Assembly (NCBI GenBank): GCA_024653355.1
Contig: JANLFQ010000003.1
Location: 74,944 to 138,943, forward strand
DNA length: 64,000 bases
DNA from: a candidate division WOR-3 bacterium
GTDB taxonomy: Bacteria > Hydrothermota > Tepidihabitantia > Tepidihabitantales > Tepidihabitantaceae
Direction: 5' to 3'
Shown here in pieces: positions 1 to 28,777 of the stretch (its first letter is position 1; the number at the start of each line of letters is the position of its first letter). A program made the position numbers and the translations under genes. Below the pieces are notes generated by a model, which saw only the letters and a program-made list of their open reading frames with translations, was not told where the DNA came from and made no database searches.

Positions 1-1718
<1,718 letters not shown>

Positions 1719-1765
1719 CGTCAGTCTGCTTCTTCTCCTTAATTGTTTTACAATATGGAGTAAGA

Positions 1766-1885
1766 TTCCCGGCGGTGATACCGGAGGGGAAACACCTCTT
1801 CCCATTCCGAACAGAGTCGTTAAGCCCTCCAGGGCCGATGGTACTGCGCTGGTAACGGCGTGGGAGAGTAGGTCGCTGCCGGGTT
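1766..1885 (+). rRNA. rrf: 5S ribosomal RNA
   Basis: ~120 nt with 5S hallmarks (CCGGCGG 5' end, CCGAAC, GTAGT.GGG..AGAGTAGG, 3' CTGCCGGG pairing with the 5' end), followed by a T-run. Confidence 0.9.
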
Positions 1886-1907: not shown

Positions 1908-1936
1908 TTGACAAAAGGAGATTTTTTTGGTATATT
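1908..1936 (+). promoter_or_regulatory. sigma70-type promoter (TTGACA-17-TATATT) upstream of the first pilin gene
   Basis: Exact -35 TTGACA at 1908-1913, 17-nt spacer, -10 TATATT at 1931-1936. Confidence 0.5.
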
Positions 1937-2063
1937 TTTTATGAGAGCAGAGAAATGCGATGCGCTCAACTACCCTTTTTTTATTCACTCAACAAAAGGT
2001 CTGGTTGGTGCATAAGCGTTTCGTCTGGTCTCACATCCCTAAAAAGAAAGGAGGTGCAGTAAA

Positions 2064-2699
2064 ATGAAGAACCGAGGCTTTACACTGATCGAGCTACTCG
2101 TGGTGATCCTGATTATCGGTATCTTGCTCGCTTTGATCATCCCGAACTTCGTGTTGTTCCAGGAGCGTGCTCGTCGTTCTTCTGTGAAGAACAATATGCA
2201 CGTTATCCAGACCGCGCTCGAGGCTTTTGCTGTCGACCACTACGGTAACTATCCGAACGAGGATGTTTCCTGGGATCCCGGTGATGAGGCTGGTATCTGT
2301 CTGTGGTTCCCGGGTGGTGACCCAGTGGGAATCGACGGAGAACCCAAGCCGGGCAACTTCCCGGTCAATCCTTACGATGGTAAGCGCTACAACGACGAAG
2401 ACAAGGACGAGATGGACCTGAACTACGAGGACTTCTTCGGCGAACTGGAGCCGGGTCAGAACGCCCAGATTCGGGGCAACGACGAGGAGTGTCCGTACCT
2501 TGATGCCGGCGGTACACCTGAATATCCAGGTGGTATCGGTATTATGACCTATGTTCCGGGCATCGGAAACGAGACTCCTCAGGAGTACGGCATCTACGGC
2601 TTTGGTCGTGATGTCGCATATCCTATGTACGACTTGGACCCGATGGCGGACGATCCGACCGACGAAGAGTCCTGGATTTTCTTCGTCCTGCACAACTAA
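2064..2699 (+). CDS. Type IV pilin / pseudopilin-like protein with prepilin N-terminus and acidic C-terminal domain
   Basis: N-terminus MKNRGFTLIELLVVILIIGILLA (class III signal, G/F cleavage site, Glu+5); SD AAAGGAGG upstream; D/E/G/P/Y-rich C-terminal part ending FFVLHN. Confidence 0.85.
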   Translation: MKNRGFTLIELLVVILIIGILLALIIPNFVLFQERARRSSVKNNMHVIQTALEAFAVDHYGNYPNEDVSWDPGDEAGICLWFPGGDPVGIDGEPKPGNFPVNPYDGKRYNDEDKDEMDLNYEDFFGELEPGQNAQIRGNDEECPYLDAGGTPEYPGGIGIMTYVPGIGNETPQEYGIYGFGRDVAYPMYDLDPMADDPTDEESWIFFVLHN

Positions 2700-2716
2700 T
2701 ACCTCCGCAGACCTTA

Positions 2717-2748
2717 CGGGGTGGGGTTAAAGCCCCACCCCGTTTTTT
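2717..2748 (+). terminator. Intrinsic terminator after pilin gene
   Basis: Perfect 10-bp stem CGGGGTGGGG / CCCCACCCCG followed by TTTTTT. Confidence 0.75.
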
Positions 2749-2754
2749 GTTTGC

Positions 2755-2782
2755 TTGACTGGTAGATATTTGATTTTATAAT
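2755..2782 (+). promoter_or_regulatory. sigma70-type promoter (TTGACT-16-TATAAT) abutting the ABC ATPase start codon
   Basis: -35 2755-2760, -10 2777-2782; a second TATAAT at 2789-2794; ATG at 2793. Confidence 0.45.
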
Positions 2783-2792
2783 GCAGTCTATA

Positions 2793-3755
2793 ATGTCATC
2801 AGTTGTAAGAAAGCCGGTAATTGAAACGGTCCGATTGACCAAGTTTTATCGCACTGGTTTTAGGATGAAGCGGGTGCGAGCGCTGGTGGATTTAAATCTT
2901 CAAGTTGAGAAGGGGGAAATCTTCGGTTTTTTGGGACCGAATGGCGCCGGAAAGACAACAGCGATTAAAATCATCATCGGTCTCGCAAAGCCCACCCAGG
3001 GTTTTGCTACCGTCCTGGGCAAACCACCAAGAGACCACCGGGTTAAAAAGTCGGTTGGTTTTTTACCGGAGTCGCCCTATTTTTATGAATATTTGACCGC
3101 GGCAGAGTTTCTGGAATTGACCGCACAACTTTCTGGGGTGCCAAGAGGGGAATTGAAACCGCGTGTACGCGAGATGTTAAAGATGGTGCGGATGGAGCAT
3201 GCCGCCCATATTCAGATGAAGGGTTTTTCTCGGGGGATGTTGCAACGGATTGGGATTGCCCAGGCGCTAATTCACGACCCAGAGGTGGTGGTGTTGGATG
3301 AGCCAATGGGCGGGCTTGACCCGATTGGCAGGAAAGAGTTCCGGGACATTATCCTCAGCCTTAGAGACCAGGGAAAGACCGTATTTTTCTCAACCCATAT
3401 CCTCGCCGATGTGGAGATGATATGTGACCGGGTGGGTATCATTGTTGGTGGCAAGATGGTGAAGGCGGGTAGATTGAATGAAATTCTTACTTCGGAGGTG
3501 GAGGCGATTGAAGTTACGGTGAGAGGGGCGCAGGGCAAGTTCCGTAAGGCGCTGGAGCGAGTTGCACAAAAGGCATTTGATTCCGGAGAGTTTTTGATGC
3601 TTACGGTTAAGGATGATGATGATGTGGAACGGATAATGGCAATCACCCGGGAGGCCGGGGCAAAAGTTACAGCGATTGTGCCTCGTACCAAGACGCTGGA
3701 GGATTTCTTTATGAGTCAGGTAAAGTCCCTCCTTGAGGAGCGAGAAAATGTTTAA
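2793..3755 (+). CDS. ABC transporter ATP-binding protein (ABC-2/DrrA-like)
   Basis: Walker A GPNGAGKTT, ABC signature, Walker B VVVLDEPMGGLD; ORF track starts at 2781 but that ATG overlaps the -10 box, so 2793 is preferred. Confidence 0.85.
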   Translation: MSSVVRKPVIETVRLTKFYRTGFRMKRVRALVDLNLQVEKGEIFGFLGPNGAGKTTAIKIIIGLAKPTQGFATVLGKPPRDHRVKKSVGFLPESPYFYEYLTAAEFLELTAQLSGVPRGELKPRVREMLKMVRMEHAAHIQMKGFSRGMLQRIGIAQALIHDPEVVVLDEPMGGLDPIGRKEFRDIILSLRDQGKTVFFSTHILADVEMICDRVGIIVGGKMVKAGRLNEILTSEVEAIEVTVRGAQGKFRKALERVAQKAFDSGEFLMLTVKDDDDVERIMAITREAGAKVTAIVPRTKTLEDFFMSQVKSLLEERENV

Positions 3756-4515
3756 CCGGGTATTCGGTGTGGCGTTAAACACCTTTCGGGAGTCTTTGCG
3801 GGACCGGGTCCTGGTGGCTTTGATTGTTACAGCGATTGTGGTGATGGCCGGTGCAAAGGTGATTCAACCGGTGGCGATGGGTGAGGCAGATAAAATCATT
3901 AAGGATTTAGGGTTATCGGCGATTACGCTTTTCTGTGTGTTGATTGCGGTTTTGGTGGGCGGGCGAATAGTTTATCGCGAGGTGGAGAAAAGAACTATTT
4001 ACTTGATTCTGGCTCGGCCGGTAAGAAGGTTAGAGTTCATCCTGGGTAAGTATCTGGGTCTAATGGCGGTTTTGGTATTGAGTTTGTTGATAATGACCGC
4101 CGGGTTTTACCTAATCCTTTTGATTTCCCGGGTGTCGGTGACGCTTTATTTACTGTGGGCGGTTTTGATGACGGCGTTTGAGCTGGCGCTGCTCACCGCG
4201 GTGGCGGTTTTCTTTTCAACCTTTGTAACGCCGATTGCCAGTTCGGTATTTACCTTTATTATATATTTCATTGGCCATAGCACCTATTTACTTAAACAGC
4301 TGGCAGCGATGAGTCCGGTACCGGCAATAAAGTTTTTGGGCGTCGTCCTTTACTACATACTGCCCAATTTAGGAAATTTTAATATCAGGGGTGATGTTGT
4401 ATACGGTGTGCCCTTAAATCCTCAGGCTTTGGTACTTTCCGCCCTGTACGGCCTGGTCTATAGTTTGACACTTCTTTTGATTGCGGTGATGATTTTCAAC
4501 CGCAAGGATTTTTAA
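3748..4515 (+). CDS. ABC-2 family transporter permease
   Basis: Six predicted hydrophobic helices; start overlaps the ATPase stop by 8 nt. Confidence 0.75.
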   Translation: MFNRVFGVALNTFRESLRDRVLVALIVTAIVVMAGAKVIQPVAMGEADKIIKDLGLSAITLFCVLIAVLVGGRIVYREVEKRTIYLILARPVRRLEFILGKYLGLMAVLVLSLLIMTAGFYLILLISRVSVTLYLLWAVLMTAFELALLTAVAVFFSTFVTPIASSVFTFIIYFIGHSTYLLKQLAAMSPVPAIKFLGVVLYYILPNLGNFNIRGDVVYGVPLNPQALVLSALYGLVYSLTLLLIAVMIFNRKDF

Positions 4516-5406
4516 GTGAAGATTACAGAGGTTACCGCCCCGGTACCAAAGGGTCCTGGGTTGTTGATTAATATCCTGCCCGTGGTTGTGGTTGTCTGGG
4601 GGTTTGTAGGTGTCTACCTGCTTCAGTTGGCGATTGATTCCACCAGTCGAAGGCAGGGTGAAAGGTTGATGCAGGAACTTGCCTATTTTCCGTCAGGTGT
4701 GGCGTTGCGCGAGGCGGTGATTGAGTATCGGGAAATTGTTGCCGATTTTATATGGCTAACGGCGATTGACTACTACGGGCGTCATCAGGAGACGGACCGC
4801 CGTTACGAGTGGCTCGGGCACATTTTTGAGATTCTCACAACGCTTGACCCCAGGTTTGTCGGTGCCTACCACTTTGGGGCAATTACCCTTGCCTGGGATG
4901 CGCATAAACCGATTGAGGCGTTGCGGTTGCTGTTGAACGGCATGAAGGCAAATCCGCTCAACTGGCAGTTACCCTTTGATGCTGGATTCATAAATTATAT
5001 GTTGACAGGCGATTACAAGTCGGCAGCGCAACTGTTTCAGGTTGCGGCAGAGTTACCGGGTGCCTGGACCGTAGTTTCCCGGTGGGTGCCCTACATAACC
5101 GCCAAGGCGGGCGATTTTGAAACGGCACGGCAGATGTGGAAAGATTTGTATTACTCAACTGAGAACAAGAAGTTGCGGGAGTTGATAATCCGCCAGCTGC
5201 AAGTGCTGAAACTTGAAGAGGGCATCGCTCGTTTACAGGAGGCGGTTGACCAATTTTATGAAAAGGAGAAGCGACTGCCGAACAGAATTGAGGAACTGGT
5301 CAGGCAGGGGTATATCAAAGAGATTCCTGAAGAGCCCTTTGGCGGAAAGTATTTCATAGAAAACGGCAAAGTGCGTAGTACGACTCAGCCCGGTTTAATA
5401 AAATAA
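4516..5406 (+). CDS. Membrane-anchored protein with helical (TPR-like) soluble domain
   Basis: GTG start immediately after the permease stop; N-terminal TM helix LLINILPVVVVVWGFVGVYLL; no recognised catalytic motif. Confidence 0.6.
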   Translation: MKITEVTAPVPKGPGLLINILPVVVVVWGFVGVYLLQLAIDSTSRRQGERLMQELAYFPSGVALREAVIEYREIVADFIWLTAIDYYGRHQETDRRYEWLGHIFEILTTLDPRFVGAYHFGAITLAWDAHKPIEALRLLLNGMKANPLNWQLPFDAGFINYMLTGDYKSAAQLFQVAAELPGAWTVVSRWVPYITAKAGDFETARQMWKDLYYSTENKKLRELIIRQLQVLKLEEGIARLQEAVDQFYEKEKRLPNRIEELVRQGYIKEIPEEPFGGKYFIENGKVRSTTQPGLIK

Positions 5407-5428
5407 GATTGGGCGATGAAGTTTTAAC

Positions 5429-5457
5429 TTGACAAATGAGGTAAATATTTGATAATT
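5429..5457 (+). promoter_or_regulatory. sigma70-type promoter (TTGACA-17-ATAATT) for second pilin gene
   Basis: -35 5429-5434, -10 5452-5457, SD GGAG before the ATG at 5479. Confidence 0.45.
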
Positions 5458-5478
5458 ATTATCAGAACAGGAGACGAT

Positions 5479-6015
5479 ATGAACTTTAAAAATGATGGCT
5501 TTACTCTGGTTGAGCTCCTGGTAGTGATAATGATCTTAGGTGTGTTGATGGGGATGTCGGTACCGAGGTTTTCTGGTATCAGAGAGCAGGCGCGGGTTGG
5601 AGCGATGAAAATGAATCTCCACAATGTCCAGGTGGCGATTGAAACCTTTCATCAGGAGTTTGGATATTACGCCGAGGATTTCTACGAGGACGGCTATGGC
5701 TGTATTTTTCCCGGTGGGGAGTACGATGTGAGAATCGGTAAATTGCCCACTAATCCCTGGACCGGAAAAGAGATGGACCCGGATGAGTTTAATCCCGAGG
5801 AGTATGATGACATTACCGATATAAGTAATACCAGTGAATATGGTCCCAACGATGTTTCCGGTTACGACCCGGGCAATATCGTTTACAGTGTCTGGGACCC
5901 ACCGGGTTCGGCTTATCCTTTGAATTACGGGCTTGTTGGTATTGACCATAGCGGGTCTTCAATCCGCGATTATGATGCGGACGGAGATGCAATAATATTT
6001 GTGTTACACAATTAA
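5479..6015 (+). CDS. Type IV pilin / pseudopilin-like protein, acidic paralog of the 2064 gene
   Basis: MNFKNDGFTLVELLVVIMILG prepilin N-terminus; acidic D/E/Y/G-rich C-terminal region ending IIFVLHN, as in the first pilin. Confidence 0.8.
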   Translation: MNFKNDGFTLVELLVVIMILGVLMGMSVPRFSGIREQARVGAMKMNLHNVQVAIETFHQEFGYYAEDFYEDGYGCIFPGGEYDVRIGKLPTNPWTGKEMDPDEFNPEEYDDITDISNTSEYGPNDVSGYDPGNIVYSVWDPPGSAYPLNYGLVGIDHSGSSIRDYDADGDAIIFVLHN

Positions 6016-6056
6016 TGGTGGATGATATGCTTGACAGCCGATTTGATAAGTCTATA

Positions 6057-6608
6057 ATGCGTTTAGTGTTTAAGAAGGTCCGCACCGCCTCGGGTTTTAC
6101 CCTCATTGAACTTTTAGTCGTGATATCGGTCCTCGGTATCCTGATGGCTTTCTTTTTCCCGACGATGATTTCCCGGATTACAAACAACACCCGCCGTACC
6201 GCGACCATTCAGGAGATGAACGCGCTGCGCGAAGCGATTGTCGGCAATCCCGATGTGCGAGTTGGCGGGGAGATTGTTGGTACCGGTTTTAAGCAGGATG
6301 TGGGGAGACTGCCGCGGCACCTGATTGAACTTGTTACCCGTAATCCGTTTGACGGTATGTATGCGCAGGTAATGTACCTTGGCAAGGAAACACTTCCGGG
6401 CTGGGACCCGTATATTCAGAAAGGGTGGAATGGTCCTTATATTCGCGAAGACGGTCAGATGGGTTATCTTTATGATGCCTGGGGAACCCCTTATCAATAC
6501 TGGGTAGAAAACAACGAGACGCTTGGTTTAAAAAGCGCCGGTCCGGATGGTCTTTTTTATGGTCAGCCCGGAGCGGTCAAGGATGACGATATTAAGATGA
6601 GGTTTTAA
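6057..6608 (+). CDS. GspG/PulG-like pseudopilin
   Basis: Prepilin N-terminus ...SGFTLIELLVVISVLGIL; GspG-like motif DAWGTPYQY; start uncertain (ORF opens at 6015; ATG 6027 and 6057 are alternatives). Confidence 0.75.
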   Translation: MRLVFKKVRTASGFTLIELLVVISVLGILMAFFFPTMISRITNNTRRTATIQEMNALREAIVGNPDVRVGGEIVGTGFKQDVGRLPRHLIELVTRNPFDGMYAQVMYLGKETLPGWDPYIQKGWNGPYIREDGQMGYLYDAWGTPYQYWVENNETLGLKSAGPDGLFYGQPGAVKDDDIKMRF

Positions 6609-7411
6609 TGAAGAGATTGGATAAGGGCGTAACTCTCGTGGAACTTCTGGTGGTCTTGATGATTCTCAGTTTAATCTTAACGGCCGCGATTAAAACCTGG
6701 GATGTAACACTGGAAAGAGGCCGATTTGAGCAGACCCGTCAGAAACTTGACCGGCTGGCAAAAGCGATTACCGGAGACCCGGACTATGTAATTGGTGGCG
6801 TGCGCGCCGATTTCGGGTTTATTGGTGATATGGGCTGTCTACCCCGAACTCTTGCCGACCTTGCCAATCAACCGAACTGGGTTACACCCCCGGAGAGCAG
6901 CCGTTGGCGCGGACCTTATGTCAAGGCACCATTTGCCGAGTCGCCCGAGGCTTATCGAATTGACGGCTGGGGCGATTCGATTGTTTTCAACCAGGATAGT
7001 TTGTTCCTCCGCAGTTACGGTGGTGGTGGGCTTGTAACTCCAGCCCGCTGGCTCACCCGTTCTTTGGGTTACACCCGCAATGACCTTTTGTCCAATACGG
7101 TTGATGGCTGGGTGGTTGACCAAAGAGGAGAACCACCGCCCGATAGCGTGGCGCCAAGGGTAATTGTGCAACTGGAATATCCCAGAGATGGACGGACTTT
7201 CCGGGATACAACTTCAATCAGGCCGGGAACAAACGGTGCGTTTGATTTCATCGGCATTCCGCAGGGTGTGCATACATTGCGCGCGATGTTCTGGCATTAC
7301 TATCCCCCACCACCGCGTTGTGATACGGTCGTTAAGGTGCTAACGGTTTTACCGCGGGTAGGGGCAAGAGGGATTGAGGTAAGAATGAATGTAGACTGGA
7401 GTAATCCGTGA
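6608..7411 (+). CDS. Pseudopilin-like protein with C-terminal extension domain
   Basis: MKRLDKGVTLVELLVVLMIL prepilin N-terminus; ...DGWGDSIVF motif; extra ~130-aa C-terminal domain; start overlaps upstream stop (TAATG). Confidence 0.75.
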   Translation: MKRLDKGVTLVELLVVLMILSLILTAAIKTWDVTLERGRFEQTRQKLDRLAKAITGDPDYVIGGVRADFGFIGDMGCLPRTLADLANQPNWVTPPESSRWRGPYVKAPFAESPEAYRIDGWGDSIVFNQDSLFLRSYGGGGLVTPARWLTRSLGYTRNDLLSNTVDGWVVDQRGEPPPDSVAPRVIVQLEYPRDGRTFRDTTSIRPGTNGAFDFIGIPQGVHTLRAMFWHYYPPPPRCDTVVKVLTVLPRVGARGIEVRMNVDWSNP

Positions 7412-7412
7412 G

Positions 7413-8558
7413 GTGTTTATGAAAAAGCAGCACGGTTTTACTTTAATGGAACTGCTGGTGGTTTTGTTGATCATCGGCGTTTTAAGCACCGTTGCGGTCC
7501 GGACAATTGATGCGACAAGGGACCGTTCCCTTTTTGACCAGACAGCAAAGGAGATGAGGGAGCTGGTTTATGCGATGGTTGGCAACCCGGATATAATGGC
7601 TAATGGTCGGAGGGTAGATTTTGGATTTTACGGCGACATGATGCGCTTGCCGAACGATTTGAAGGAACTGGTCGAGAACACGACCGGTTCGCCTTATTGG
7701 CGTGGTCCCTATCTCCGCCGGGAGTTCTTGCAGGATACGATGGGTTATCGATTGGATGCTTGGGGAAACCCCTATACTTATGACCGGAGTACCGGTACGA
7801 TTGCCACACTGGGAAATGGCAAGTATCCGATGACGATGCGCGTTGCTGAGGCGATATCCCATTTGACTGACAACTGGGTGATGGGAAATGTTTCGGATGC
7901 CGAGAATGTTCCTCCTGGTGATAAGGCGGTAACGATTGGAATTAAGTTGTATCTCCCCAACGGCTCGTTTTATTTTACTCGACCCGACCCCGGTGGTTTT
8001 TACCAGTTTACTCCCCAGACGCACGGACCGGTGCCGATTGGCGTTCATAAAATAGTTGCCAACCGCCCCGGAGGAGATTCTATTGTGCGCTGGGTCACAG
8101 TGACGCCGCGCAGTAAAGTGATGGTGGACTTTCGGTTTACCGGTTCATTCCGCAACTACCTGGAGATGATTGGTGAGCCGCTGCTTTTCGGTGACAGTTC
8201 TGGTTTTACCATTAAGGTTGTCAACAGCGGGTCAACTGTTGACACGGTTAAATCGATAAAGTTACTTATTGCGCCGGATAGCGCCTATCTGGGTTTTTTG
8301 CGGATTTACAGCGTCACCCAGGGCGGAACGCCCCAAGAACAACAGTTTTCCCCCCGTAAGGGACAGGGGGACAGTTTAATTGTGTATCCTCCGTTTTCCA
8401 TCCAGCCCGGCAAAGCGGAGGAGGTTCAGTTCAGTTTTTACGGGTTCTGCAAGACCCCGAGTATTGCGGATTCGACGAAGGCAAACATCTACAATAAACT
8501 TTTTCGATTGAGGTTTAATGATGGTTCGGAGTTTGCCGTCACACCGGTGCGTCCGTGA
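7413..8558 (+). CDS. Pseudopilin-like protein with large C-terminal extension (candidate tip or adhesin minor pilin)
   Basis: MFMKKQHGFTLMELLVVLLIIGVL prepilin N-terminus; DAWGNPYTYD motif; ~250-aa C-terminal beta-rich extension. Confidence 0.75.
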   Translation: MFMKKQHGFTLMELLVVLLIIGVLSTVAVRTIDATRDRSLFDQTAKEMRELVYAMVGNPDIMANGRRVDFGFYGDMMRLPNDLKELVENTTGSPYWRGPYLRREFLQDTMGYRLDAWGNPYTYDRSTGTIATLGNGKYPMTMRVAEAISHLTDNWVMGNVSDAENVPPGDKAVTIGIKLYLPNGSFYFTRPDPGGFYQFTPQTHGPVPIGVHKIVANRPGGDSIVRWVTVTPRSKVMVDFRFTGSFRNYLEMIGEPLLFGDSSGFTIKVVNSGSTVDTVKSIKLLIAPDSAYLGFLRIYSVTQGGTPQEQQFSPRKGQGDSLIVYPPFSIQPGKAEEVQFSFYGFCKTPSIADSTKANIYNKLFRLRFNDGSEFAVTPVRP

Positions 8559-8579
8559 CGGCGGAAATAAGGAGGTACA

Positions 8580-10184
8580 TTGGCAACTAAGGTCTTTGGC
8601 GGGGGTGGCAAAGGCACCCTCTGTATTGATATCGGTTCCAATTCGGTAAAGTTTGTAAAGGTAGAAGGTGGCCGGGTTGTTGACTATGGTCTGAAGGAGA
8701 TCGGTGAGGCGTTTGATGTTCCCTCAATTCTCCGTGAGTTGATCAAGGATTACAAGCCGCGCGAGGTGTACACATTTGTCTCCGGTCCATCGGTCAGCGT
8801 GCGTCAGGCGCCGTTCCCCAAGATGAATCGCCGGGAATTGAAAGAGGCGATTCTTTTACGATTGGATAAATACTCGCCCTTTACCCTTGACGAGGCGATA
8901 TTCGACTTTAAGACCCTCGGACCGGTGCGCGAGGCGGGGACGATAAAAGACAACGTTATGGTTATTGCGGCCCGCAAGGACATTGTCTCCGACCACATCT
9001 CGACCCTGCGCAAGGCGGGCCTTGAACCCACGACGATCAGCGTTGTGCCGTTTGCTTTGCAGGCGGCGGTTAAGAAGTTCGGCCGGGTCAGACCGGATGA
9101 AACGGTTTGTTTGCTTGATATCGGTGCCGAGTTTACCGATATGATATTTATGAAGGGAGAACGGCTTGATTTGGCGAGGACGGTGACGACCGCGGGCAAT
9201 GCGATTACCGAAGCAATGACGGTGGCGATTACAACCGAGGAAGGGCAACTGGCACTGGACGCCTACGATGCTGAGGAGTTAAAACGCAAGTACGGAATCC
9301 CGCCGGAAGATAGTCAGGAACGGCTTCCTTCGGGCATTATGGTGAAGCGATTGTTGACCCTGCAGCGGCCCGCGCTGGAGAGATTTGTTGCCGAGATCAA
9401 CCGGTCAATTGACTATTATCGCCGGGAGTTTGGCGAACAGAAGATCGACCGTCTGCTCATCTGCGGTGGTTCGGCAGCGATGAAGGGGCTGCGGGAGTAT
9501 CTACAGACCAGTTTGGGAATTCCAACGGAGATTTTTGACCCGTTCCGGGACTTTGGCCTTTATCGCAAAGCGACCGGTCCGGAAGAGGAAATCGGCTATC
9601 GTTTGGTTGCGGCGCTGGGGTTGTACTATGACCATTCCGCGGTGGACCTTTTGCCGGTTGAAATGAAGTCCGGTCGATTCATCGCACGCGATGTACGAAT
9701 GATGACCCTGGGTGGAATAGTGTGGGTAGGCATTTTAATCCTTGGTTACATTCTGGTTGCGGGCTGGACCGGCATTTCCAGTGGCCAGGTTTCCAAGTTG
9801 CGCAACGAGATTAAAGCAACTGAGGAGCAAAACCGGGGCTATTTTGCGCTTGAGAAGGAGATTGCTGACCTTGAGGCGCGGGAGCGAGCGCTGAAGAGTG
9901 TTGTCGGCGAAGTTTTGCCGACGGTCCCGGTGCTGGGTGCCCTTTCGACGATTGTCCCGACGAATATTCAGTTGAGCAGTTTTACATTGAGCAACCGTTC
10001 CAATGTGAAAATCACCGGTGTGGTTAGCGGTGAACCGCACCTGCTTGATGTCGACCTCGCCCAGTTCTTGATTGACCTCGAACGCAGCCAGGTGTTTAAA
10101 CAGGTACAGCTGGTTTCTAAGAACCGTAGTACCCTGCAGGGGGAAGCGGTTTTAGAGTTTGAAATCCAATGTGTCACGGAGTAA
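8580..10184 (+). CDS. pilM: Type IV pilus assembly protein, PilM (actin-like ATPase) fused to PilN
   Basis: TTG start with AAGGAGG SD; N-terminal ~350 aa with PilM-like CIDIGSNSVKFV and LICGGSA motifs; then TM helix, coiled coil and a PilN-like C-terminus. Confidence 0.75.
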   Translation: MATKVFGGGGKGTLCIDIGSNSVKFVKVEGGRVVDYGLKEIGEAFDVPSILRELIKDYKPREVYTFVSGPSVSVRQAPFPKMNRRELKEAILLRLDKYSPFTLDEAIFDFKTLGPVREAGTIKDNVMVIAARKDIVSDHISTLRKAGLEPTTISVVPFALQAAVKKFGRVRPDETVCLLDIGAEFTDMIFMKGERLDLARTVTTAGNAITEAMTVAITTEEGQLALDAYDAEELKRKYGIPPEDSQERLPSGIMVKRLLTLQRPALERFVAEINRSIDYYRREFGEQKIDRLLICGGSAAMKGLREYLQTSLGIPTEIFDPFRDFGLYRKATGPEEEIGYRLVAALGLYYDHSAVDLLPVEMKSGRFIARDVRMMTLGGIVWVGILILGYILVAGWTGISSGQVSKLRNEIKATEEQNRGYFALEKEIADLEARERALKSVVGEVLPTVPVLGALSTIVPTNIQLSSFTLSNRSNVKITGVVSGEPHLLDVDLAQFLIDLERSQVFKQVQLVSKNRSTLQGEAVLEFEIQCVTE

Positions 10185-10187
10185 AAT

Positions 10188-10763
10188 ATGGGGATACTTG
10201 AAAGAAGGGTAGTTATCATTGGACTGGCAGTATATGTTGTTTTAGGTGTCGCAGCCTGGTTTTTGCTTTATCAACCGCGGATAAACGCCCGGAACAAGGC
10301 GGCGAAGGAAATCGCCGAACTGCGCAAGGAGTTGGACGATACCAAAGCCCGAATTGCCCAGATGCCGCGTTTGCGGCAGAAGAAGGCGCAACTGGAGCAG
10401 GAGATAGGTGATATCTGGGCACGCGTTGTACCTCGTTCCGAGATGTTAGGGCTTTTCCGGCGAATTTCCCAGGAGGCAGAACAGGAGCGGGTGCACTTCT
10501 TAGAGATTGTGCCGCCGGGACTGGATACACTTCTCCAGGAAGAGGGACCGAGCGCGCAGGTGAGGCCGGTGCCTTTTCTTGTGACGGTTCAGGGGCGTTA
10601 TCTTGATATCGGCCGCTACATCCAGAACCTGAACGGTTATCAGTACTTTGTGCGCGTGCCCGATGTTGACATCAATGCCCGGGATGACATAAGACCGGAG
10701 ATTGAGGCGAAACTGCTGGTGAACATCTACGTGTCCAGTCTCGCGGGTGGGGGTAATTTGTGA
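10188..10763 (+). CDS. pilO: PilO-like pilus assembly protein
   Basis: N-terminal TM helix, coiled coil, C-terminal beta domain; position directly after PilM-N. Confidence 0.6.
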   Translation: MGILERRVVIIGLAVYVVLGVAAWFLLYQPRINARNKAAKEIAELRKELDDTKARIAQMPRLRQKKAQLEQEIGDIWARVVPRSEMLGLFRRISQEAEQERVHFLEIVPPGLDTLLQEEGPSAQVRPVPFLVTVQGRYLDIGRYIQNLNGYQYFVRVPDVDINARDDIRPEIEAKLLVNIYVSSLAGGGNL

Positions 10764-11338
10764 GAAGGGTTGGTATCCTGATTGTTCTGGCCGCGGTTGT
10801 TGTGGTTGGCGGGTTTTTGCTTTTGCGTAAGCCCCAGAAGTCAACAGGGAAAAGGACGAAGAGCAAAACGGCGCAAAGTGATTCAACACAGGTTGCCGGT
10901 CAGCAAAGTGGTACGGCGGCTGTCCGCGGCGCGAAGGGAAAGACGGTTGGACGGTTGAAAGCGAAAACAAAAGAGGAGCGACTGGCAGAAAAAAAGCGGT
11001 TGCGGGAAGAAGAGAAGAAGAAGCGCCGGGAGTTGAAACGGCAAGAGCGGGAGCGGCGCCGGATGCTTAAATATGCGCGCTCAAAGCGGGGAAGCAGAAA
11101 GGCGAGCCGTAAGGGTTCCTACTATGTTGTCAAAGCGATTGTTTCGCTGGGCAGTGAAAGTTACGCTTTGATTGATAGCCGAAGGGTAAAAGTGGGCGAT
11201 GTCGTGATGGGGCGCCGAATTGTTGATATTCAACCCGACAGAATTGAGATTGAGGCTTTTGGACGAAGGAGTGTAGTCCGGGTGGGTGAGAGCATCTTAC
11301 CCACTTCCTATATTATAGAGAGGAAGCGAAGGATTTAA
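10760..11338 (+). CDS. Membrane-anchored Lys/Arg/Glu-rich protein with PilP-like C-terminal domain
   Basis: GTG start overlapping the PilO stop; TM helix, highly charged low-complexity linker, C-terminal ...IDSRRVKVGDVVMGRRIVDIQPDRIEIEA (PilP/GspC-like). Confidence 0.5.
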   Translation: MRRVGILIVLAAVVVVGGFLLLRKPQKSTGKRTKSKTAQSDSTQVAGQQSGTAAVRGAKGKTVGRLKAKTKEERLAEKKRLREEEKKKRRELKRQERERRRMLKYARSKRGSRKASRKGSYYVVKAIVSLGSESYALIDSRRVKVGDVVMGRRIVDIQPDRIEIEAFGRRSVVRVGESILPTSYIIERKRRI

Positions 11339-11354
11339 ACAGGAAAGGAGCAAC

Positions 11355-11837
11355 TTGAGCGAGAAATTTTTAGCAATTTTAGCTATCGCGGTTGTTGCCC
11401 TGGGTGGTTATACCCTGTTTTTCCGAACAAATGGTGCTGGTCCGAAGATTGCTGACGGGACGGCATACACCGAAATTTCCCATATGGCGCCGGCCGAAGT
11501 GTCGCGTTCGATGCAATCTAAAGAAAAGGTCCAAGCACCGTCATCTGCCGGGGTAACATCAGCCCAGGGCGCAGCGCTGGAAACTGCTACCAGTTATGAA
11601 GAAAATGTGGTATGGGGAAGTGACCCATTCGTGCGCGACTGGGTTTTGAGTACTGAGATTGCCAATCTGAACCTTCAGGCGATTACGGTTACCCCTCACG
11701 GTGCGAGCGCCTTAATCAATGACCAGATTGTCCAAGTCGGAGATGAAATCAATCGCAAAAAAGTGGTTGATATCAAAGAGGACCAGGTAACCCTGGAGCA
11801 GGGTGGTCGAACATTTACTTTGACACTGGGGGAGTAA
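11355..11837 (+). CDS. PilP-like protein
   Basis: TTG start after AAAGGAG; N-terminal TM helix; C-terminal ...INDQIVQVGDEINRKKVVDIKEDQVTLEQGG resembles the PilP domain. Confidence 0.5.
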   Translation: MSEKFLAILAIAVVALGGYTLFFRTNGAGPKIADGTAYTEISHMAPAEVSRSMQSKEKVQAPSSAGVTSAQGAALETATSYEENVVWGSDPFVRDWVLSTEIANLNLQAITVTPHGASALINDQIVQVGDEINRKKVVDIKEDQVTLEQGGRTFTLTLGE

Positions 11838-11840
11838 CTT

Positions 11841-13442
11841 ATGAAAAATAAAACAACAGTTTTGGTTGTCATGTTCCTTGCCCTTATGGGTCTGTTAGCA
11901 GCCCAGGAGCAAATTGTCGTAAAGGATGTCGCGGTTGAAAAGTTGCTCGATGGTGTTCGGGTAACGATTGCCTGTAGCCAGACACCCAACATCAGTTCCT
12001 ATGTTTCTTATCAACCGCCGGCGCTGGTTGTCGATGTGATGGATGCGACTTCGAAGGTGGCGCAAGAGCGTATCACTTCCCGTTTCTACCCGGTGAGTGC
12101 GGTTACGGTTAAACCGAGCGATGCGACCAGCGGTGTTCGGGTAACTGTGTTTCTGCGCGATGTCGTGCGGCACCGGATTTACAACGAAGGCGGCGTGGTA
12201 ACGATTGATTTTGGAACAACACCTTTGATGCCCGCACCCGAAATCAAGAGTCAGGACCCGTTTGAGGGCAAGCCACCGCTAACGCTACTGGTTCAGGATG
12301 CTGACATTGCCAGCGTTTTGCGGATGATTGCCCGGCAGTTTGACCTCAACCTGCTGATCAGTCAGGATGTAAAGTCGATGGTGAGTGTCCGGTTGAATGA
12401 GGTGCCGCTGCGCGTTGGTGTGGAGGCGCTTTTGAAGGCGGCGGGCTGTAATATGGTGGAAGATAAGAGCGGGGTGATAATTGTAAAGCCGCTGAAGAAG
12501 CAGATGTATGGCGAGATGCAAACGCGGGTTTTTCGCCTTGACTACCTTGAAGCCAAGGATGCCAAGGAGGCGATTGCCAAGGCACTTTCGGAAAATGGAA
12601 CGGCCGAGATTGGTTTCAGCCGGGTCGGTACCAAGGCGGCAGGCGGTGAGGAGCGAAGCGGGATACTGGTGGTAACCGATGTGCCTGAGGCGCTTGATAA
12701 CATCGCACGCATAATTTCCGAACTGGACCGGCCGATGCCCCAGATTGCGATTGAGGCAAAGTTCATTGAGACCACCTATTCAAGTGAAGACCGCTACGGC
12801 ATTGACTGGACCCCAATCGCAACATTTTCTACCGAGATGCCCAAAATTAACGATGAGGTTGCAATTCCGGTGATTGTGAAAGAGATGCTTTTTGGCAAGA
12901 TATCGTTTTCTCAGTTCAGTGCCTCACTGGAGCTGCTGATGTCGCGGGGTAAATCACGGGTTCTTGCCAATCCCAGGACGGTGACGCTGGACAATCAAAC
13001 GGCGTCGATAAGTATGGGGCTGGATGTGCCAGTACGAGAAGTCCACAAAGACCCGAACACGGGAGAGATTACTTACACCTGGCGGACGCGGTCAATTCCG
13101 ATCAAGATGGATGTTACCCCCCATGTTACTTCCGATGGGATGATTACGATGCGGGTGAAACCCAGCGTTGAGGCAATTACCGGTTGGGTTGGCTCGGCCG
13201 ACGACCGCCAGCCGATTGTTGCCAAGCGGGAAGCCGAGACCCAGGTGAAAGTTGCTGAGGATGAGGTGGTGGTGATTGGCGGTTTGGTCAAGGACGAGGA
13301 GACGAAAAATGTTGGCAAGATTCCGCTCCTCGGTGACATTCCGATTATCGGGCATTTGTTTAAGAAGACATCGGTTCAGCGGAACAAGAGCGATTTGATG
13401 ATTTTTATCATCCCCCACATACTGATGCCCGAAAACGGATAG
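11841..13442 (+). CDS. pilQ: Secretin (PilQ/GspD family outer-membrane channel)
   Basis: Signal peptide; C-terminal secretin motifs VVVIGGLVKDEETKNVGKIPLLGDIPIIGHLFK...SDLMIFIIPHIL. Confidence 0.9.
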   Translation: MKNKTTVLVVMFLALMGLLAAQEQIVVKDVAVEKLLDGVRVTIACSQTPNISSYVSYQPPALVVDVMDATSKVAQERITSRFYPVSAVTVKPSDATSGVRVTVFLRDVVRHRIYNEGGVVTIDFGTTPLMPAPEIKSQDPFEGKPPLTLLVQDADIASVLRMIARQFDLNLLISQDVKSMVSVRLNEVPLRVGVEALLKAAGCNMVEDKSGVIIVKPLKKQMYGEMQTRVFRLDYLEAKDAKEAIAKALSENGTAEIGFSRVGTKAAGGEERSGILVVTDVPEALDNIARIISELDRPMPQIAIEAKFIETTYSSEDRYGIDWTPIATFSTEMPKINDEVAIPVIVKEMLFGKISFSQFSASLELLMSRGKSRVLANPRTVTLDNQTASISMGLDVPVREVHKDPNTGEITYTWRTRSIPIKMDVTPHVTSDGMITMRVKPSVEAITGWVGSADDRQPIVAKREAETQVKVAEDEVVVIGGLVKDEETKNVGKIPLLGDIPIIGHLFKKTSVQRNKSDLMIFIIPHILMPENG

Positions 13443-13487
13443 GTTAATGAATTAGGAAAAGCAGGCGGCATTGCCTTTTGCTGATGA

Positions 13488-14624
13488 ATGAATATCGACG
13501 AACTCCTGCGCTATGCAGCAAAATACGGTGCCTCTGACCTCCATATCACTGCGGGCAATCCGCCGATAATCAGGGTTAACGGCAGACTAAAGAAAATTCC
13601 CGGACCAGCACTGACGGCAGAAGATGCCCAGTTGCTGGTCTACTCTATTCTCTCGGATGAACAGCGGGCGGCGGTTGAAAGAAAACGGGAGCTGGACCTT
13701 TCTTACACCTGGGGCGAGGCTTCGCACCATTTACCGCCGGAGGCGGTAACCCTTGATTATATCAGCCCGGAGCGGGTCCGGGCAAGGGTTAATGTATTTC
13801 TTGATTTAGGTGGGGTGGGGGCGGCATTTCGCATCATACCAGCAAAAATCCGGACGCTTGATGAGTTGCCGGCGCCCGCTTCGGTGGCGGAGCTGACGCG
13901 CAGCCATTCCGGACTGGTTCTGGTTACCGGTCCGACCGGTTGTGGGAAATCGACGACGCTGGCAAGTATGATTGACCTGATCGACCAGGAACGGGCGGTA
14001 CGGATAATCACGATTGAGGACCCGATTGAGTACATCTTTCAGCCCCGGAACTGCTTGATAAGTCAGCGGGAGATTGGCACCCATTCCCGTTCATTTGCCG
14101 CCGCGCTGCGGGCGTGTCTGCGGGAAGACCCGGATGTGATTCTGGTGGGCGAGATGCGGGATTTGGAAACTATCAGTCTCGCTTTGACCGCAGCCGAGAC
14201 CGGCCATCTGGTCCTTTCTACACTCCACACGAACAATGTTGCCCAGACTGTTGACCGGGTGATTGATGTCTTTCCTGCTGACCAGCAGGAGTATGTACGG
14301 CAGATTTTTGCCAATGTGATTCGCGGTATCATATCGCAGACCTTGTTGCCCCGGAAAGATGGTAGAGGAAGGGTGGCGGCGATGGAGGTTCTGGTTGCGA
14401 CACCGGCGGTCAAAAACCTTATTCGGGAGGCAAAGACCCACCAGATACCGTCACTGGTCCAGACCGGCTCTCAGTACGGGATGCAGACAATGGACCAGTG
14501 TTTAGAGTCGCTGATGGCAGAGGGGCTTATCGCTCCGGAGGTTGCCTATGCTGTCGCCAGCGACAAGAAACTTTTCACTCCTCCAGCCAGTCCGGTTTCA
14601 CCGCCCGGTCCGAAAGGGCAGTGA
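13488..14624 (+). CDS. pilT: Type IV pilus retraction ATPase PilT
   Basis: GASDLHIT, Walker A GPTGCGKST, Asp box, PilT signature AVKNLIREAKTHQIPSLVQTG. Confidence 0.9.
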   Translation: MNIDELLRYAAKYGASDLHITAGNPPIIRVNGRLKKIPGPALTAEDAQLLVYSILSDEQRAAVERKRELDLSYTWGEASHHLPPEAVTLDYISPERVRARVNVFLDLGGVGAAFRIIPAKIRTLDELPAPASVAELTRSHSGLVLVTGPTGCGKSTTLASMIDLIDQERAVRIITIEDPIEYIFQPRNCLISQREIGTHSRSFAAALRACLREDPDVILVGEMRDLETISLALTAAETGHLVLSTLHTNNVAQTVDRVIDVFPADQQEYVRQIFANVIRGIISQTLLPRKDGRGRVAAMEVLVATPAVKNLIREAKTHQIPSLVQTGSQYGMQTMDQCLESLMAEGLIAPEVAYAVASDKKLFTPPASPVSPPGPKGQ

Positions 14625-15421
14625 TTTACTTATTAACGCTAATTTTGGGTCTGGTTTTTGGTAGTTTTTTTAATGTTTGTATCTGGCGCATTCCGCGCGG
14701 TGAGTCAATAAATTATCCGCCTTCGCGCTGTCCGCGCTGCGGAAAACGCATCCGGTTTTACGACAACATCCCGGTAGTCAGCTTTTTAATTCTCCGGGGC
14801 CGGTGTCGGGATTGTGGTAAACCGATCGCAATTCGTTATCCACTTGTTGAACTTTTGAGCGGGCTCCTTTTCCTGTTAACCTATATCCGCTTTGGGCTCA
14901 ATCCGGCAATTCTGCGCCCGCTAACTTTTATCGGGTTTCTCGTCATTCTTGCCGGTATTGACATTGACCACAAGATACTGCCCTTCAGACTTTCGTTATC
15001 CGGCCTGATTCTGGGGATAATTTTTTCTTTCATCCCTCTGTTTCAGTTCAACATTGAAAAGGCTTTCTGGGGTGGTGTCATCGGCGCCGTGTTTGTGCTC
15101 TTTGCCTGGGCACTCTGGCGGTTTGTGCTGGCGAAGCCGTTTCGCCGTCTCGGGGTAAAAAGGGCAGAAGGGATGGGCTGGGGCGATTTGCCCTTTGCGG
15201 CGATGATTGGTGTTTATGTGGGACCAAAAGGTATGGTGGTGGCGCTGGCGGTGGCGGTGGTTAGCGGTGTGATAGCAGGGGTTTTGGGCCGCATCTGGGG
15301 CAAGACAAAGGCGGGTACTGAGGTGCCCTTTGGTCCATTTTTAGCCCTGGGCGGGCTGGTAGGGTTGTACTGGGGTGAGATGCTGTTTGACCTTTATCTG
15401 CGGGCGATAGGTTTAGCATAA
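14621..15421 (+). CDS. pilD: Prepilin peptidase (A24 family, PilD/GspO)
   Basis: Membrane protein with zinc-binding CPRCG..CRDCG pairs and A24 motifs; GTG start at 14621 overlaps the pilT stop (GTGA); the ORF-track start at 14498 is in another frame over pilT. Confidence 0.85.
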   Translation: MIYLLTLILGLVFGSFFNVCIWRIPRGESINYPPSRCPRCGKRIRFYDNIPVVSFLILRGRCRDCGKPIAIRYPLVELLSGLLFLLTYIRFGLNPAILRPLTFIGFLVILAGIDIDHKILPFRLSLSGLILGIIFSFIPLFQFNIEKAFWGGVIGAVFVLFAWALWRFVLAKPFRRLGVKRAEGMGWGDLPFAAMIGVYVGPKGMVVALAVAVVSGVIAGVLGRIWGKTKAGTEVPFGPFLALGGLVGLYWGEMLFDLYLRAIGLA

Positions 15422-15437
15422 ATGGTAGATTAATAAA

Positions 15438-15471
15438 GCCGGGGAGGCGATTTTACCTCCCCGGCTGTTTT
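15438..15471. terminator. Intrinsic terminator between convergent pilD and the OmpA-family gene
   Basis: 10-bp stem GCCGGGGAGG / CCTCCCCGGC followed by TGTTTTAT. Confidence 0.7.
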
Positions 15472-28697: not shown

Positions 28698-28741
28698 AAA
28701 ATATCATCGGGTATTAAGCGCTGATGTCAAGAATACCGCGG

Positions 28742-28770: not shown

Positions 28771-28777
28771 TTCAGGT

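What the first reader, a model, noticed from the sequence alone, without database searches (positions are those of the whole stretch)
2064..15421. Type IV pilus-like cluster with GspG-type pseudopilins, lacking the assembly ATPase and platform protein
The locus has pilins, PilM-N, PilO, two PilP-like genes, a secretin, PilT and PilD, but no PilB/GspE or PilC/GspF. Three of the five pilin-like genes carry the T2SS-type DAWG-x-PY motif. PilT (retraction) without a local extension ATPase, plus a second PilT at 24862-25971, is an unusual split. It is unclear whether this is a pilus, a T2SS-like secretion apparatus or a hybrid.
Basis: partly seen in the sequence, partly recalled or inferred. Interest (0 to 1): 0.6.

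Follow-up and report, generated by a model that had tools for sequence, protein, structure and literature searches.

The report
Type IV pilus locus of WOR-3
This is the main type IVa pilus gene cluster of an uncultured WOR-3 bacterium; its extension motor (pilB) and platform (pilC) genes are not in the locus, which is normal for this kind of pilus, so the finding is largely ordinary.

Summary
The gene inventory is real. No PilB or PilC lies in the 64-kb window, in 7.7 kb upstream or in 7.3 kb downstream. None lies within 10 kb of the cluster in 28 related WOR-3 loci.

The window is contig JBBFKS010000001.1 of GCA_037481955.1, candidate division WOR-3. The parts are type IVa pilus parts: two ATPases above the PilT family cut-off, PilM above its cut-off, PilN and PilO above Pfam cut-offs, and an AMIN-bearing secretin. 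No T2SS model reaches its cut-off. The GspG likeness of pilins 3-5 is motif-level and sub-threshold.

Type IVa pili are usually encoded in several loci, so the split is not unusual. Fused PilM-PilN clusters in other phyla do carry PilB and PilC.

I could not search the rest of the genome, so pilB/pilC "elsewhere" is inferred, not shown. Verdict: new member of a known kind, low interest. About 5% chance remains that WOR-3 truly lacks PilB/PilC.

The parts
1908..1936 (+). near-consensus sigma-70 promoter of pilin1 (TTGACA-17-TATATT with extended TG)
   Evidence: 11 of 12 matches; lies between the 5S rRNA T-run and pilin1
2064..2699 (+). pilin1, candidate major pilin (PilA-like; 5-aa leader MKNRG|FTLIELL)
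   Evidence: N_methyl 33.6 bits. Best NCBIfam hit is typeIV_PilA_Myxo, N-terminal part only. Best PDB hit is M. xanthus PilA 8tj2, E 9e-12, residues 6-67. It has its own promoter and terminator.
2716..2743 (+). strong intrinsic terminator after pilin1
   Evidence: 12-bp stem with 9 GC pairs, followed by TTTTTT
2781..3755 (+). ABC transporter ATP-binding protein (DrrA/GldA-like)
   Evidence: ABC_tran 96 bits; TIGR01188 225 bits and GldA 203 bits, both below cut-off; syntenic in about 18 WOR-3 loci
3748..4515 (+). ABC-2 type permease
   Evidence: ABC2_membrane_2 43 bits; synteny
4516..5406 (+). membrane-anchored TPR-like accessory protein
   Evidence: only a weak TPR_16 hit and no NCBIfam hit; syntenic with the ABC pair
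5479..6015 (+). pilin2, paralogue of pilin1 (39% identical, same C-terminal FVLHN)
   Evidence: N_methyl 33.4 bits; alignment
6057..6608 (+). pilin3, GspG-like minor pilin (DAWGTPYQY ... GPDG ... DDDI). The start is uncertain (6027, 6057 or 6066).
6608..7411 (+). pilin4, larger minor pilin (degenerate DGWGDS motif)
   Evidence: N_methyl 28.3 bits; conserved next to pilin3 and pilin5 in 25 loci
7419..8558 (+). pilin5, large minor pilin (DAWGNPYTY) with about 250 extra C-terminal residues
   Evidence: N_methyl 35 bits; T2SSG 18.8 bits, below cut-off; TIGR01710 38 bits, below cut-off
8580..10184 (+). PilM-PilN fusion (actin-like ATP-binding domain, TM helix, periplasmic PilN domain)
   Evidence: PilM_2 121 bits and PilN 30 bits; TIGR01175 141 bits against a cut-off of 133; 371 representative clusters at E<1e-30, and most of the top 150 match over nearly the whole query
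10188..10763 (+). PilO
   Evidence: Pfam PilO 47 bits against a cut-off of 22; T2SSM 22.8 bits, below cut-off
10760..11338 (+). PilP-like protein 1 (TM helix, K/R/E-rich linker, small beta domain)
   Evidence: no significant family hit; conserved position and sequence in 22 loci. The role is inferred.
11355..11837 (+). PilP/GspC-HR-like protein 2 (TM helix, WGxDPFVRDW motif, small beta domain)
   Evidence: of 16 orthologues, 16 weakly match T2SSB, 15 match CdsD_C and 8 match T2SSC, all below cut-off
11841..13442 (+). PilQ-type secretin (signal peptide, AMIN, N0, N1, secretin domain)
   Evidence: Secretin 156 bits, Secretin_N 34.6 bits, AMIN 27.2 bits, all above cut-off. TIGR02515 PilQ 235 bits exceeds TIGR02517 GspD 207 bits, but both are below their cut-offs.
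13488..14624 (+). PilT1 retraction ATPase
   Evidence: TIGR01420 450 bits against a cut-off of 319. PDB PilT 5zfq E 5e-103 against PilB at about 1e-28. The AVKNLIRE motif is visible in the translation.
14621..15421 (+). PilD prepilin peptidase/N-methyltransferase
   Evidence: A24_N_bact 127 bits and Peptidase_A24 53 bits; the public gene call is 266 aa
15437..15466 (.). bidirectional terminator that closes the cluster
   Evidence: 11-12 bp stem with 9 GC pairs, on both strands
24862..25971 (-). PilT2, second PilT/PilU-family ATPase, unlinked
   Evidence: TIGR01420 371 bits against a cut-off of 319. The AVRNLIRE motif is visible. About 50 listed clusters are 75% or more identical (those with an organism name are mostly WOR-3), then identity drops to 57% or less.

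Best explanation
The span 1908-15466 is the principal gene cluster of a type IVa pilus (T4aP) machine in a candidate division WOR-3 bacterium.

Proposed roles:
- pilin1 is a strongly and separately transcribed major pilin.
- PilD cleaves and methylates the five prepilins.
- Pilins 3-5 are minor pilins that prime or tip the fibre.
- The fused PilM-PilN, PilO and the two small PilP-like proteins form the inner-membrane alignment complex. This complex couples a cytoplasmic motor to the AMIN-anchored PilQ secretin.
- PilT1, and the unlinked PilT2, depolymerise the fibre to retract it.

The extension ATPase PilB and the platform protein PilC are needed by every known type IV filament machine. They are encoded at another locus of the same genome, as is usual for T4aP.

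Shown: the identity of the parts, their conservation and synteny across WOR-3, and the absence of pilB/pilC from about 79 kb around the locus.

Inferred: that pilB/pilC exist elsewhere, which pilin is the major one, the role of the PilP-like proteins, and the role of the ABC transporter trio. The last may be a PilGHI-like accessory exporter.
For: Family assignments:
- PilT1 and PilT2 both exceed the PilT/PilU family cut-off. PilT1 matches solved PilT structures at E about 1e-100 and PilB only at about 1e-28.
- PilM is above the TIGR01175 cut-off. PilN, PilO, Secretin, AMIN and both A24 domains are above their Pfam cut-offs.

Pilin1:
- Its N-terminus is closest to M. xanthus PilA.
- It has a near-consensus promoter and a strong terminator.

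Conservation:
- The whole gene order is conserved in about 18 WOR-3 species. The core pilin3-4-5-PilMN-O-P1-P2-Q-(T)-D is conserved in 28 loci, down to 53% PilMN identity. This argues for a functional, selected machine.

PilB/PilC in comparable systems:
- Fused PilM-PilN is widespread.
- In Thermodesulfobacteriota, Elusimicrobia, Omnitrophota and others, the same cluster contains a PilB of 560-595 aa and a PilC of about 405 aa. Machines of this architecture therefore do use PilB/PilC.

Literature:
- T4aP are usually encoded in multiple loci (PMC6668835).
- M. xanthus has a pilA-pilG-pilH-pilI operon with an ABC exporter next to the major pilin (PMC3546991).
- The only cultured WOR-3 strain shows pili by electron microscopy (PMC12285271).
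- NCBI already names these proteins PilM and PilT.
Against: - No pilB or pilC of this genome, or of any WOR-3 genome, was actually seen.
- They are absent from contig positions 67,268-146,257.
- They are absent from the flanks (up to 10 kb on each side) of 28 WOR-3 loci.
- They are absent from the neighbourhoods of two PilT2 orthologues.
- A PilB-profile search of the large protein database listed only its 120 best hits, none labelled WOR-3, so it says nothing either way.
- No pilin reaches a T4a-specific model cut-off. Pilins 3-5 look more GspG-like than FimU/PilV/W/X-like.
- PilP identity rests on sub-threshold hits.
- The cultured WOR-3 strain showed no motility.
Confidence: 0.75

Rival explanations
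1. It is a T2SS-like secretion apparatus derived from a T4aP. The GspG-like pilin3 would be the major pseudopilin of a short periplasmic piston. The fused PilM-PilN would act like GspL, PilO like GspM, and the small HR-like proteins like GspC/GspB. Proteins would be pushed out through the secretin.
For: - Pilin3 and pilin5 carry DAWGxPY. Pilin3 also has the ...GPDG...DDDI tail typical of GspG.
- The best Foldseek hits of the pilin3 model are GspG 3g20 and 3gn9.
- Some orthologues carry a precomputed PF08334 hit and are named 'general secretion pathway protein G' by JGI.
- A PilM-TM-PilN fusion has the domain order of GspL.
- PilO has weak T2SSM/GspM hits. PilP2 has weak T2SSB/T2SSC hits.
- The most conserved core in distant WOR-3 loci (L024-L028) has pilin3-5 but no pilin1 and no PilT.
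- The so-called T2SS of Bacteroidetes clusters with T4aP (PMC6668835).
Against: - All T2SS models are below cut-off: GspG 38-55 bits against 88.85, T2SSG 19 against 21, T2SSM 22.8 against 27.8, GspD below PilQ.
- There are two PilT retraction ATPases, one inside the operon. PilT is characteristically lost in T2SS (PMC6668835).
- The secretin has an AMIN domain, as PilQ does.
- No GspC PDZ domain and no GspH-K were detected.
- pulG-annotated pilins occur in ordinary T4P operons, for example in Thermocrinis (PMC11696919).
Confidence: 0.12
2. The machine is a bona fide T4aP, but its main job is DNA uptake (natural competence) or adhesion rather than twitching motility.
For: - The cultured WOR-3 strain has pili but no observed motility.
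- The architecture, PilMNO plus a secretin plus PilT plus several small pilins, is the one used for transformation in Thermus and Acinetobacter. This rests on established knowledge and was not tested here.
Against: - No ComEA, ComEC or DprA was seen in the Pfam scans of the larger window ORFs.
- Nothing in the sequence separates competence, adhesion and motility.
Confidence: 0.08
3. WOR-3 has no PilB/PilC at all. The conserved cluster would work with another motor. One candidate is a PilT paralogue acting in both directions, as CpaF does in Tad pili. Another is the cluster-embedded ABC transporter. Alternatively, the cluster is a relic.
For: - pilB/pilC are absent from every WOR-3 stretch examined, about 0.5 Mb in 28 loci plus 79 kb of this genome.
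- There are two divergent PilT paralogues.
- An ABC ATPase and permease are conserved next to the pilin genes.
Against: - All the stretches examined surround the same locus, so they sample under 5% of a genome.
- No type IV filament system is known without an assembly ATPase and a platform protein (PMC6668835).
- Both ATPases carry the PilT-specific AxRNLIRE motif.
- Strong conservation rules out a relic.
- M. xanthus has the ABC trio in addition to PilB/PilC.
Confidence: 0.05

Closest known systems
Myxococcus xanthus type IVa pilus cluster (pilB-T-C-S-R-A-G-H-I-D-M-N-O-P-Q)
   Same: - A major pilin whose N-terminal helix is the best PDB match of pilin1 (8tj2).
- An ABC exporter trio encoded next to the pilin (pilAGHI).
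- pilD, pilM/N/O/P, an AMIN-bearing pilQ and pilT all present in one region.
   Different: - In Myxococcus, pilB and pilC are in the same cluster, pilM and pilN are separate genes, and the minor pilins (fimU-pilVWX-pilY1) lie elsewhere.
- Here the order of the ABC genes differs, and the third component is a TM/TPR-like protein.
- Homology to PilG/H/I was not tested directly.
Pseudomonas aeruginosa T4aP (pilMNOPQ; pilBCD-pilA; pilTU; fimU-pilVWXY1E at separate loci)
   Same: - A multi-locus layout in which pilMNOPQ is separate from pilB/pilC.
- Two PilT-family ATPases.
- The same set of core functions.
   Different: - In Pseudomonas, pilD travels with pilB/pilC and pilT/pilU are adjacent to each other. 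Here pilD and pilT1 follow pilQ, and the pilins precede pilM.
- Here PilM and PilN are fused.
- No PilY1 and no GspH/I/J/K-like minor pilins were recognised.
Type II secretion system (GspC-O)
   Same: - A prepilin peptidase and a secretin.
- A GspG-like motif in three pilins.
- A GspL-like domain order in the PilM-PilN fusion.
- A PilO/GspM-like protein and HR-domain-like proteins.
   Different: - No GspE or GspF locally.
- All Gsp-specific models are below cut-off.
- PilT is present twice.
- The secretin has an AMIN domain.
- No GspC PDZ domain and no GspH-K.
Akkermansia Amuc_1098-1102 pilus-like cluster
   Same: - The PilMN fusion hits the Amuc_1101 family model (137 bits over residues 61-443).
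- The secretin hits Amuc_1098 (81 bits).
- Both are PilM-like long proteins encoded next to a secretin and pilin-like genes.
   Different: - The scores are far below the family cut-offs (650 and 750).
- No Amuc_1100-like protein was recognised.

Membership tests
Type IVa pilus (T4aP) | PilM actin-like cytoplasmic protein | tested here: met
   TIGR01175 141.4 bits against a cut-off of 133; Pfam PilM_2 121 bits
Type IVa pilus (T4aP) | PilN and PilO bitopic inner-membrane proteins | tested here: met
   PilN 30 bits against 22.8, fused to PilM; PilO 47 bits against 22
Type IVa pilus (T4aP) | PilP, the partner that binds secretin N0 | tested here: inconclusive
   There are two candidates. Only sub-threshold T2SSB/T2SSC/CdsD_C hits were found, and a profile search of the PDB found nothing.
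Type IVa pilus (T4aP) | PilQ secretin with AMIN domain(s) | tested here: met
   Secretin 156 bits and AMIN 27.2 bits against 20.5. The PilQ model scores best (235 bits) but is below its cut-off of 284.
Type IVa pilus (T4aP) | PilT retraction ATPase | tested here: met
   TIGR01420 gives 450 and 371 bits against a cut-off of 319. PDB PilT matches at E 5e-103.
Type IVa pilus (T4aP) | PilD prepilin peptidase, and pilins with a class III signal peptide | tested here: met
   A24_N_bact 127 bits and Peptidase_A24 53 bits; N_methyl is above cut-off in all five pilins
Type IVa pilus (T4aP) | Major pilin of T4a type | tested here: inconclusive
   The pilin1 leader is 5 aa. The N-terminal helix is closest to M. 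xanthus and Geobacter PilA. The globular domain matches no model, and typeIV_PilA_Myxo scores 61 bits against a cut-off of 400.
Type IVa pilus (T4aP) | PilB extension ATPase | tested here: not met
   Not in the window, 7.7 kb upstream or 7.3 kb downstream, nor in the flanks (up to 10 kb each side) of the 28 WOR-3 loci. The rest of the genome is not testable with these tools, so this result applies to the locus only.
Type IVa pilus (T4aP) | PilC platform protein | tested here: not met
   A PilC HMM built from 4 seeds finds nothing in six frames of the window or in the WOR-3 loci. The called genes of the flanking loci show no T2SSF family. The genome-wide status is not testable here.
Type II secretion system | GspG major pseudopilin | tested here: not met
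   TIGR01710 gives 38-55 bits against a cut-off of 88.85, mostly on the N-terminal helix. Pfam T2SSG gives 19.3 and 18.8 bits against 21. Foldseek to GspG gives E 0.2-0.7.
Type II secretion system | GspE ATPase and GspF platform in the operon | tested here: not met
Type II secretion system | GspL, GspM and GspC (HR plus PDZ), and the minor pseudopilins GspH-K | tested here: not met
   There is no T2SSL hit. T2SSM scores 22.8 bits against 27.8, GspM_XpsM 24 against 60, GspC_delta 18.5 against 150, and GspH/GspJ hits cover the N-terminal helix only.
Type II secretion system | Absence of a PilT retraction ATPase | tested here: not met
   There are two PilT genes, one inside the operon.

The most novel reading that the evidence does not exclude
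The WOR-3 phylum may have lost, or never had, PilB and PilC. Its conserved pilus machine would then be driven by something else. One candidate is a PilT paralogue working in both directions, as the single ATPase CpaF does in Tad pili. Another is the ABC transporter trio that is conserved next to the major pilin gene.
Probability: 0.05. Interest if true: 0.85.

Novelty: new member of a known kind. Interest (0 to 1): 0.2.

Why it matters
As it stands, this documents the type IV pilus locus of a poorly known phylum that has a single cultured isolate, in which pili are seen by electron microscopy. It shows a phylum-wide conserved layout: a fused PilM-PilN, three GspG-like minor pilins, an ABC trio next to the major pilin, and the major pilin placed directly behind the 23S-5S rRNA genes. 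That helps annotation and gives a candidate for the pili seen in strain sy37.

It would only matter broadly if a whole-genome search showed that WOR-3 has no PilB/PilC. That would overturn the view that every type IV filament machine needs a dedicated assembly ATPase and platform protein.

Tried and rejected
1. Finding pilB/pilC of this genome. A PilB profile from eight fused-PilMN clusters was searched against the 5.8-billion-protein set. Only the best 120 hits are listed, all close to the seeds and none WOR-3. This was a dead end, not evidence of absence.

2. Walking along the contig. Look-ups anchored on pilin1 and on the last window gene extended the view to contig positions 67,268-146,257.

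3. Looking beside PilT2 orthologues in other WOR-3 genomes, on the guess of a pilB-pilT-pilC arrangement. None was found.

4. Supplements of two WOR-3 genome papers were searched for pilB/pilC and their KEGG numbers. Nothing was found. A text search for the assembly and run accessions also found nothing.

5. A first related-loci scan with a 30-sequence PilMN alignment failed for lack of a conserved stretch. A 6-sequence alignment worked.

6. Profile searches of PDB sequences with PilP2 and pilin3 alignments gave nothing beyond the pilin N-terminal helix.

7. The idea that one of the two small ATPases is a short PilB or GspE was rejected. Both pass the PilT family cut-off and carry AxRNLIRE.

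8. Tad and Com systems were considered and rejected. No TadA/B/C, RcpA, Flp or ComG signatures appear, and a secretin plus PilMNO plus PilT are present.

9. A second structure prediction, for pilin1, was not run.
Full report
**What is there.** The window begins inside a 23S rRNA gene (1-1719), followed by a 5S gene (1768-1884). All the following genes are on the + strand:
- pilin1 (2064-2699)
- an ABC ATPase (2781-3755), an ABC-2 permease (3748-4515) and a membrane-anchored TPR-like protein (4516-5406)
- pilin2 (5479-6015), pilin3 (about 6057-6608), pilin4 (6608-7411) and pilin5 (7419-8558)
- a PilM-PilN fusion (8580-10184) and PilO (10188-10763)
- two small bitopic proteins (10760-11338 and 11355-11837)
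- a secretin with an AMIN domain (11841-13442)
- PilT (13488-14624) and PilD (14621-15421)

A bidirectional terminator at 15437-15466 closes the cluster. A second PilT-family gene lies at 24862-25971 on the - strand. It skipped the three ABC/TPR genes. PilD starts at 14621 rather than 14498. Only pilin3 (DAWGTPY) and pilin5 (DAWGNPY) carry the exact motif, while pilin4 has DGWGDSI.

**Absence of PilB and PilC.** Pfam scans of the larger ORFs in the rest of the window found no T2SSE beyond the two PilT proteins and no T2SSF. I built HMMs from the PilB and PilC proteins of other fused-PilMN clusters and ran them against every stop-to-stop frame of 60 aa or more in the window. Only the two PilT proteins matched, on the ATPase core, and nothing matched PilC.

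**Where the window comes from.** The window is identical to GCA_037481955.1, contig JBBFKS010000001.1 (1.43 Mb), starting near position 74,944. NCBI labels its proteins 'candidate division WOR-3 bacterium' and already names them PilM, PilT and PilT/PilU.

**The flanks of the window.** A look-up anchored on pilin1 showed what precedes the 23S gene: AlaS, a LytR_cpsA_psr protein, the Der GTPase, a small ORF and a SWIB protein. There is no pilB-pilC there. A look-up anchored on the last complete window gene showed 7 kb further downstream: a TonB-dependent receptor, DNA polymerase I and polysaccharide genes. About 79 kb around the locus is therefore free of pilB/pilC.

**What kind of machine it is.**
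- Both small ATPases exceed the curated PilT/PilU cut-off (450 and 371 bits against 319).
- PilT1 matches solved PilT structures at E about 1e-100, but PilB and GspE only at about 1e-28.
- Both carry the PilT-type AxRNLIRE motif.
- PilM passes TIGR01175. PilN, PilO, Secretin, Secretin_N, AMIN and both prepilin-peptidase domains pass their Pfam cut-offs.
- The secretin scores higher on the PilQ model than on the GspD model, though both are below their cut-offs.
- Every T2SS-specific model is sub-threshold. These are GspG, GspH, GspJ, GspM, GspC, GspD and GspE, plus Pfam T2SSG, T2SSM, T2SSB and T2SSC.
- The parts list is therefore that of a type IVa pilus, not of a T2SS.

**The pilins.**
- Pilin1 has a 5-residue leader. 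Its N-terminal helix is closest to M. xanthus PilA (8tj2, E 9e-12), then Geobacter PilA, then GspG.
- Pilin1 has its own near-consensus promoter (1908-1936) and a strong terminator (2716-2743). That is the usual signature of a major pilin gene.
- Pilin2 is a 39%-identical paralogue of pilin1.
- Pilin3 is the best-conserved pilin and has the GspG-like C-terminal pattern DAWGxPY...GPDG...DDDI.
- 'GspG-type' is thus a motif-level resemblance, not family membership. Pilins annotated pulG also sit in ordinary T4P operons, for example in Thermocrinis (PMC11696919).

**Comparative evidence.**
- The fused PilM-PilN is common. There are 371 representative clusters at E<1e-30, and most of the best 150 match over nearly the whole query.
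- A scan of species-representative genomes returned 80 loci.
- Twenty-eight of them have 53-99% PilMN identity. Most that carry an organism name are labelled WOR-3; others are 'uncultured bacterium' or 'bacterium', and one is labelled Latescibacterota.
- About 18 of the 28 keep the complete order: pilin1-ABC-ABC2-TPR-pilin2-3-4-5-PilMN-O-P1-P2-Q-PilT-PilD.
- The more distant ones keep pilin3-4-5-PilMN-O-P1-P2-Q-(PilT)-PilD.
- None of the 28 has a PilB- or PilC-like ORF in its flanks, which reach up to 10 kb on each side.
- Outside these 28 loci, PilB-size ATPases were found in 26 of the loci from other phyla (Thermodesulfobacteriota, Elusimicrobia, Omnitrophota and others). The same clusters contain a PilB of 560-595 aa and a PilC of about 405 aa.
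- Machines with this architecture therefore do use PilB/PilC. The WOR-3 lineage simply does not keep those genes next to pilMNOPQ.

[quoted passage not shown] They also treat pilD as a possible loner gene and note that T4aP pilins can lie apart from the other genes (PMC6668835). Pseudomonas is the textbook case, with pilMNOPQ, pilBCD, pilTU and the minor pilins all separate; that rests on established knowledge rather than a test here. The ABC trio beside the major pilin has a precedent in the M. xanthus pilA-pilG-pilH-pilI operon, whose ABC exporter is required for pilus biogenesis (PMC3546991). I did not test direct homology to PilG/H/I. The first cultured WOR-3 bacterium, strain sy37, shows pili by negative staining, and motility was not observed (PMC12285271).

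**What remains open.**
- I could not search the rest of the genome.
- A PilB-profile search of the large protein collection lists only its 120 best hits, none WOR-3.
- Neighbourhoods of PilT2 orthologues in two other WOR-3 genomes have no pilB/pilC.
- Two WOR-3 genome papers do not tabulate these genes.
- That pilB/pilC lie elsewhere is thus an inference. It rests on three points: every known type IV filament system requires these two components, the cluster is strongly conserved, and the same architecture in other phyla includes them. I put it at about 90-95%.

**Verdict.** This is the conserved type IVa pilus locus of a WOR-3 bacterium. It is a new member of a known kind with some lineage-specific features: the PilM-PilN fusion, GspG-like minor pilins, two PilP-like proteins, an ABC trio, and rRNA-pilin adjacency. 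Interest is low (0.2). The only high-interest reading, a phylum that builds pili without PilB/PilC, keeps about 5% probability. It can be settled by one HMM search of the full proteome.

Noticed in passing
window 1-1884; L088 1-9560: The 23S-5S rRNA pair is not preceded by a 16S gene. Upstream lie AlaS, LytR_cpsA_psr, Der, a small ORF and SWIB, then AT-rich promoter-like DNA. The rRNA operon therefore appears split. The 23S-5S to pilin1 adjacency is kept in at least 10 WOR-3 species.
   Followed up: partly
window 2064-2699 (NCBI call starts at 2325): The public gene call for pilin1 in GCA_037481955.1 is only 124 aa. It lacks the class III signal peptide and the N-terminal helix. The Logan assembly call has the full 211 aa. 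This is probably an annotation error that hides the major pilin.
   Followed up: partly
window 2781-5406: An ABC ATPase, an ABC-2 permease and a TM/TPR-like protein lie between pilin1 and pilin2. They are syntenic in about 18 WOR-3 species. The best NCBIfam hits of the ATPase are DrrA and the gliding-motility protein GldA. The composition recalls M. xanthus pilAGHI.
   Followed up: partly
window 6031-6058: A perfect consensus promoter match (TTGACA-16-TATAAT, 12 of 12) lies inside the 5' end of the long pilin3 ORF. The true pilin3 start may therefore be 6066, possibly on a nearly leaderless mRNA.
   Followed up: no
L024-L028; L089: In the more distant WOR-3 loci, PilQ is followed directly by PilD with no PilT between them. 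In L089 a PilT2 orthologue lies about 6 kb from PilD/PilQ. PilT placement is thus the variable part of the locus.
   Followed up: partly
window 15486-17420 (-): An OmpA-family outer-membrane protein with three CarboxypepD_reg domains converges on PilD. It is syntenic with the cluster in most close WOR-3 relatives, and some have a second copy.
   Followed up: no
window 30918-36203: A 1761-aa single protein combines a Ser/Thr kinase, an AAA_16 (STAND-like) ATPase, TPR repeats, a GAF domain, a sigma-54 activator domain and a Fis-type HTH.
   Followed up: no
window 28724-29974 and 37466-40846: There is a bacterial serpin (392 bits). There is also a 1126-aa C25 (gingipain-type) peptidase with a T9SS C-terminal sorting domain, so the organism also has type IX secretion cargo.
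   Followed up: no
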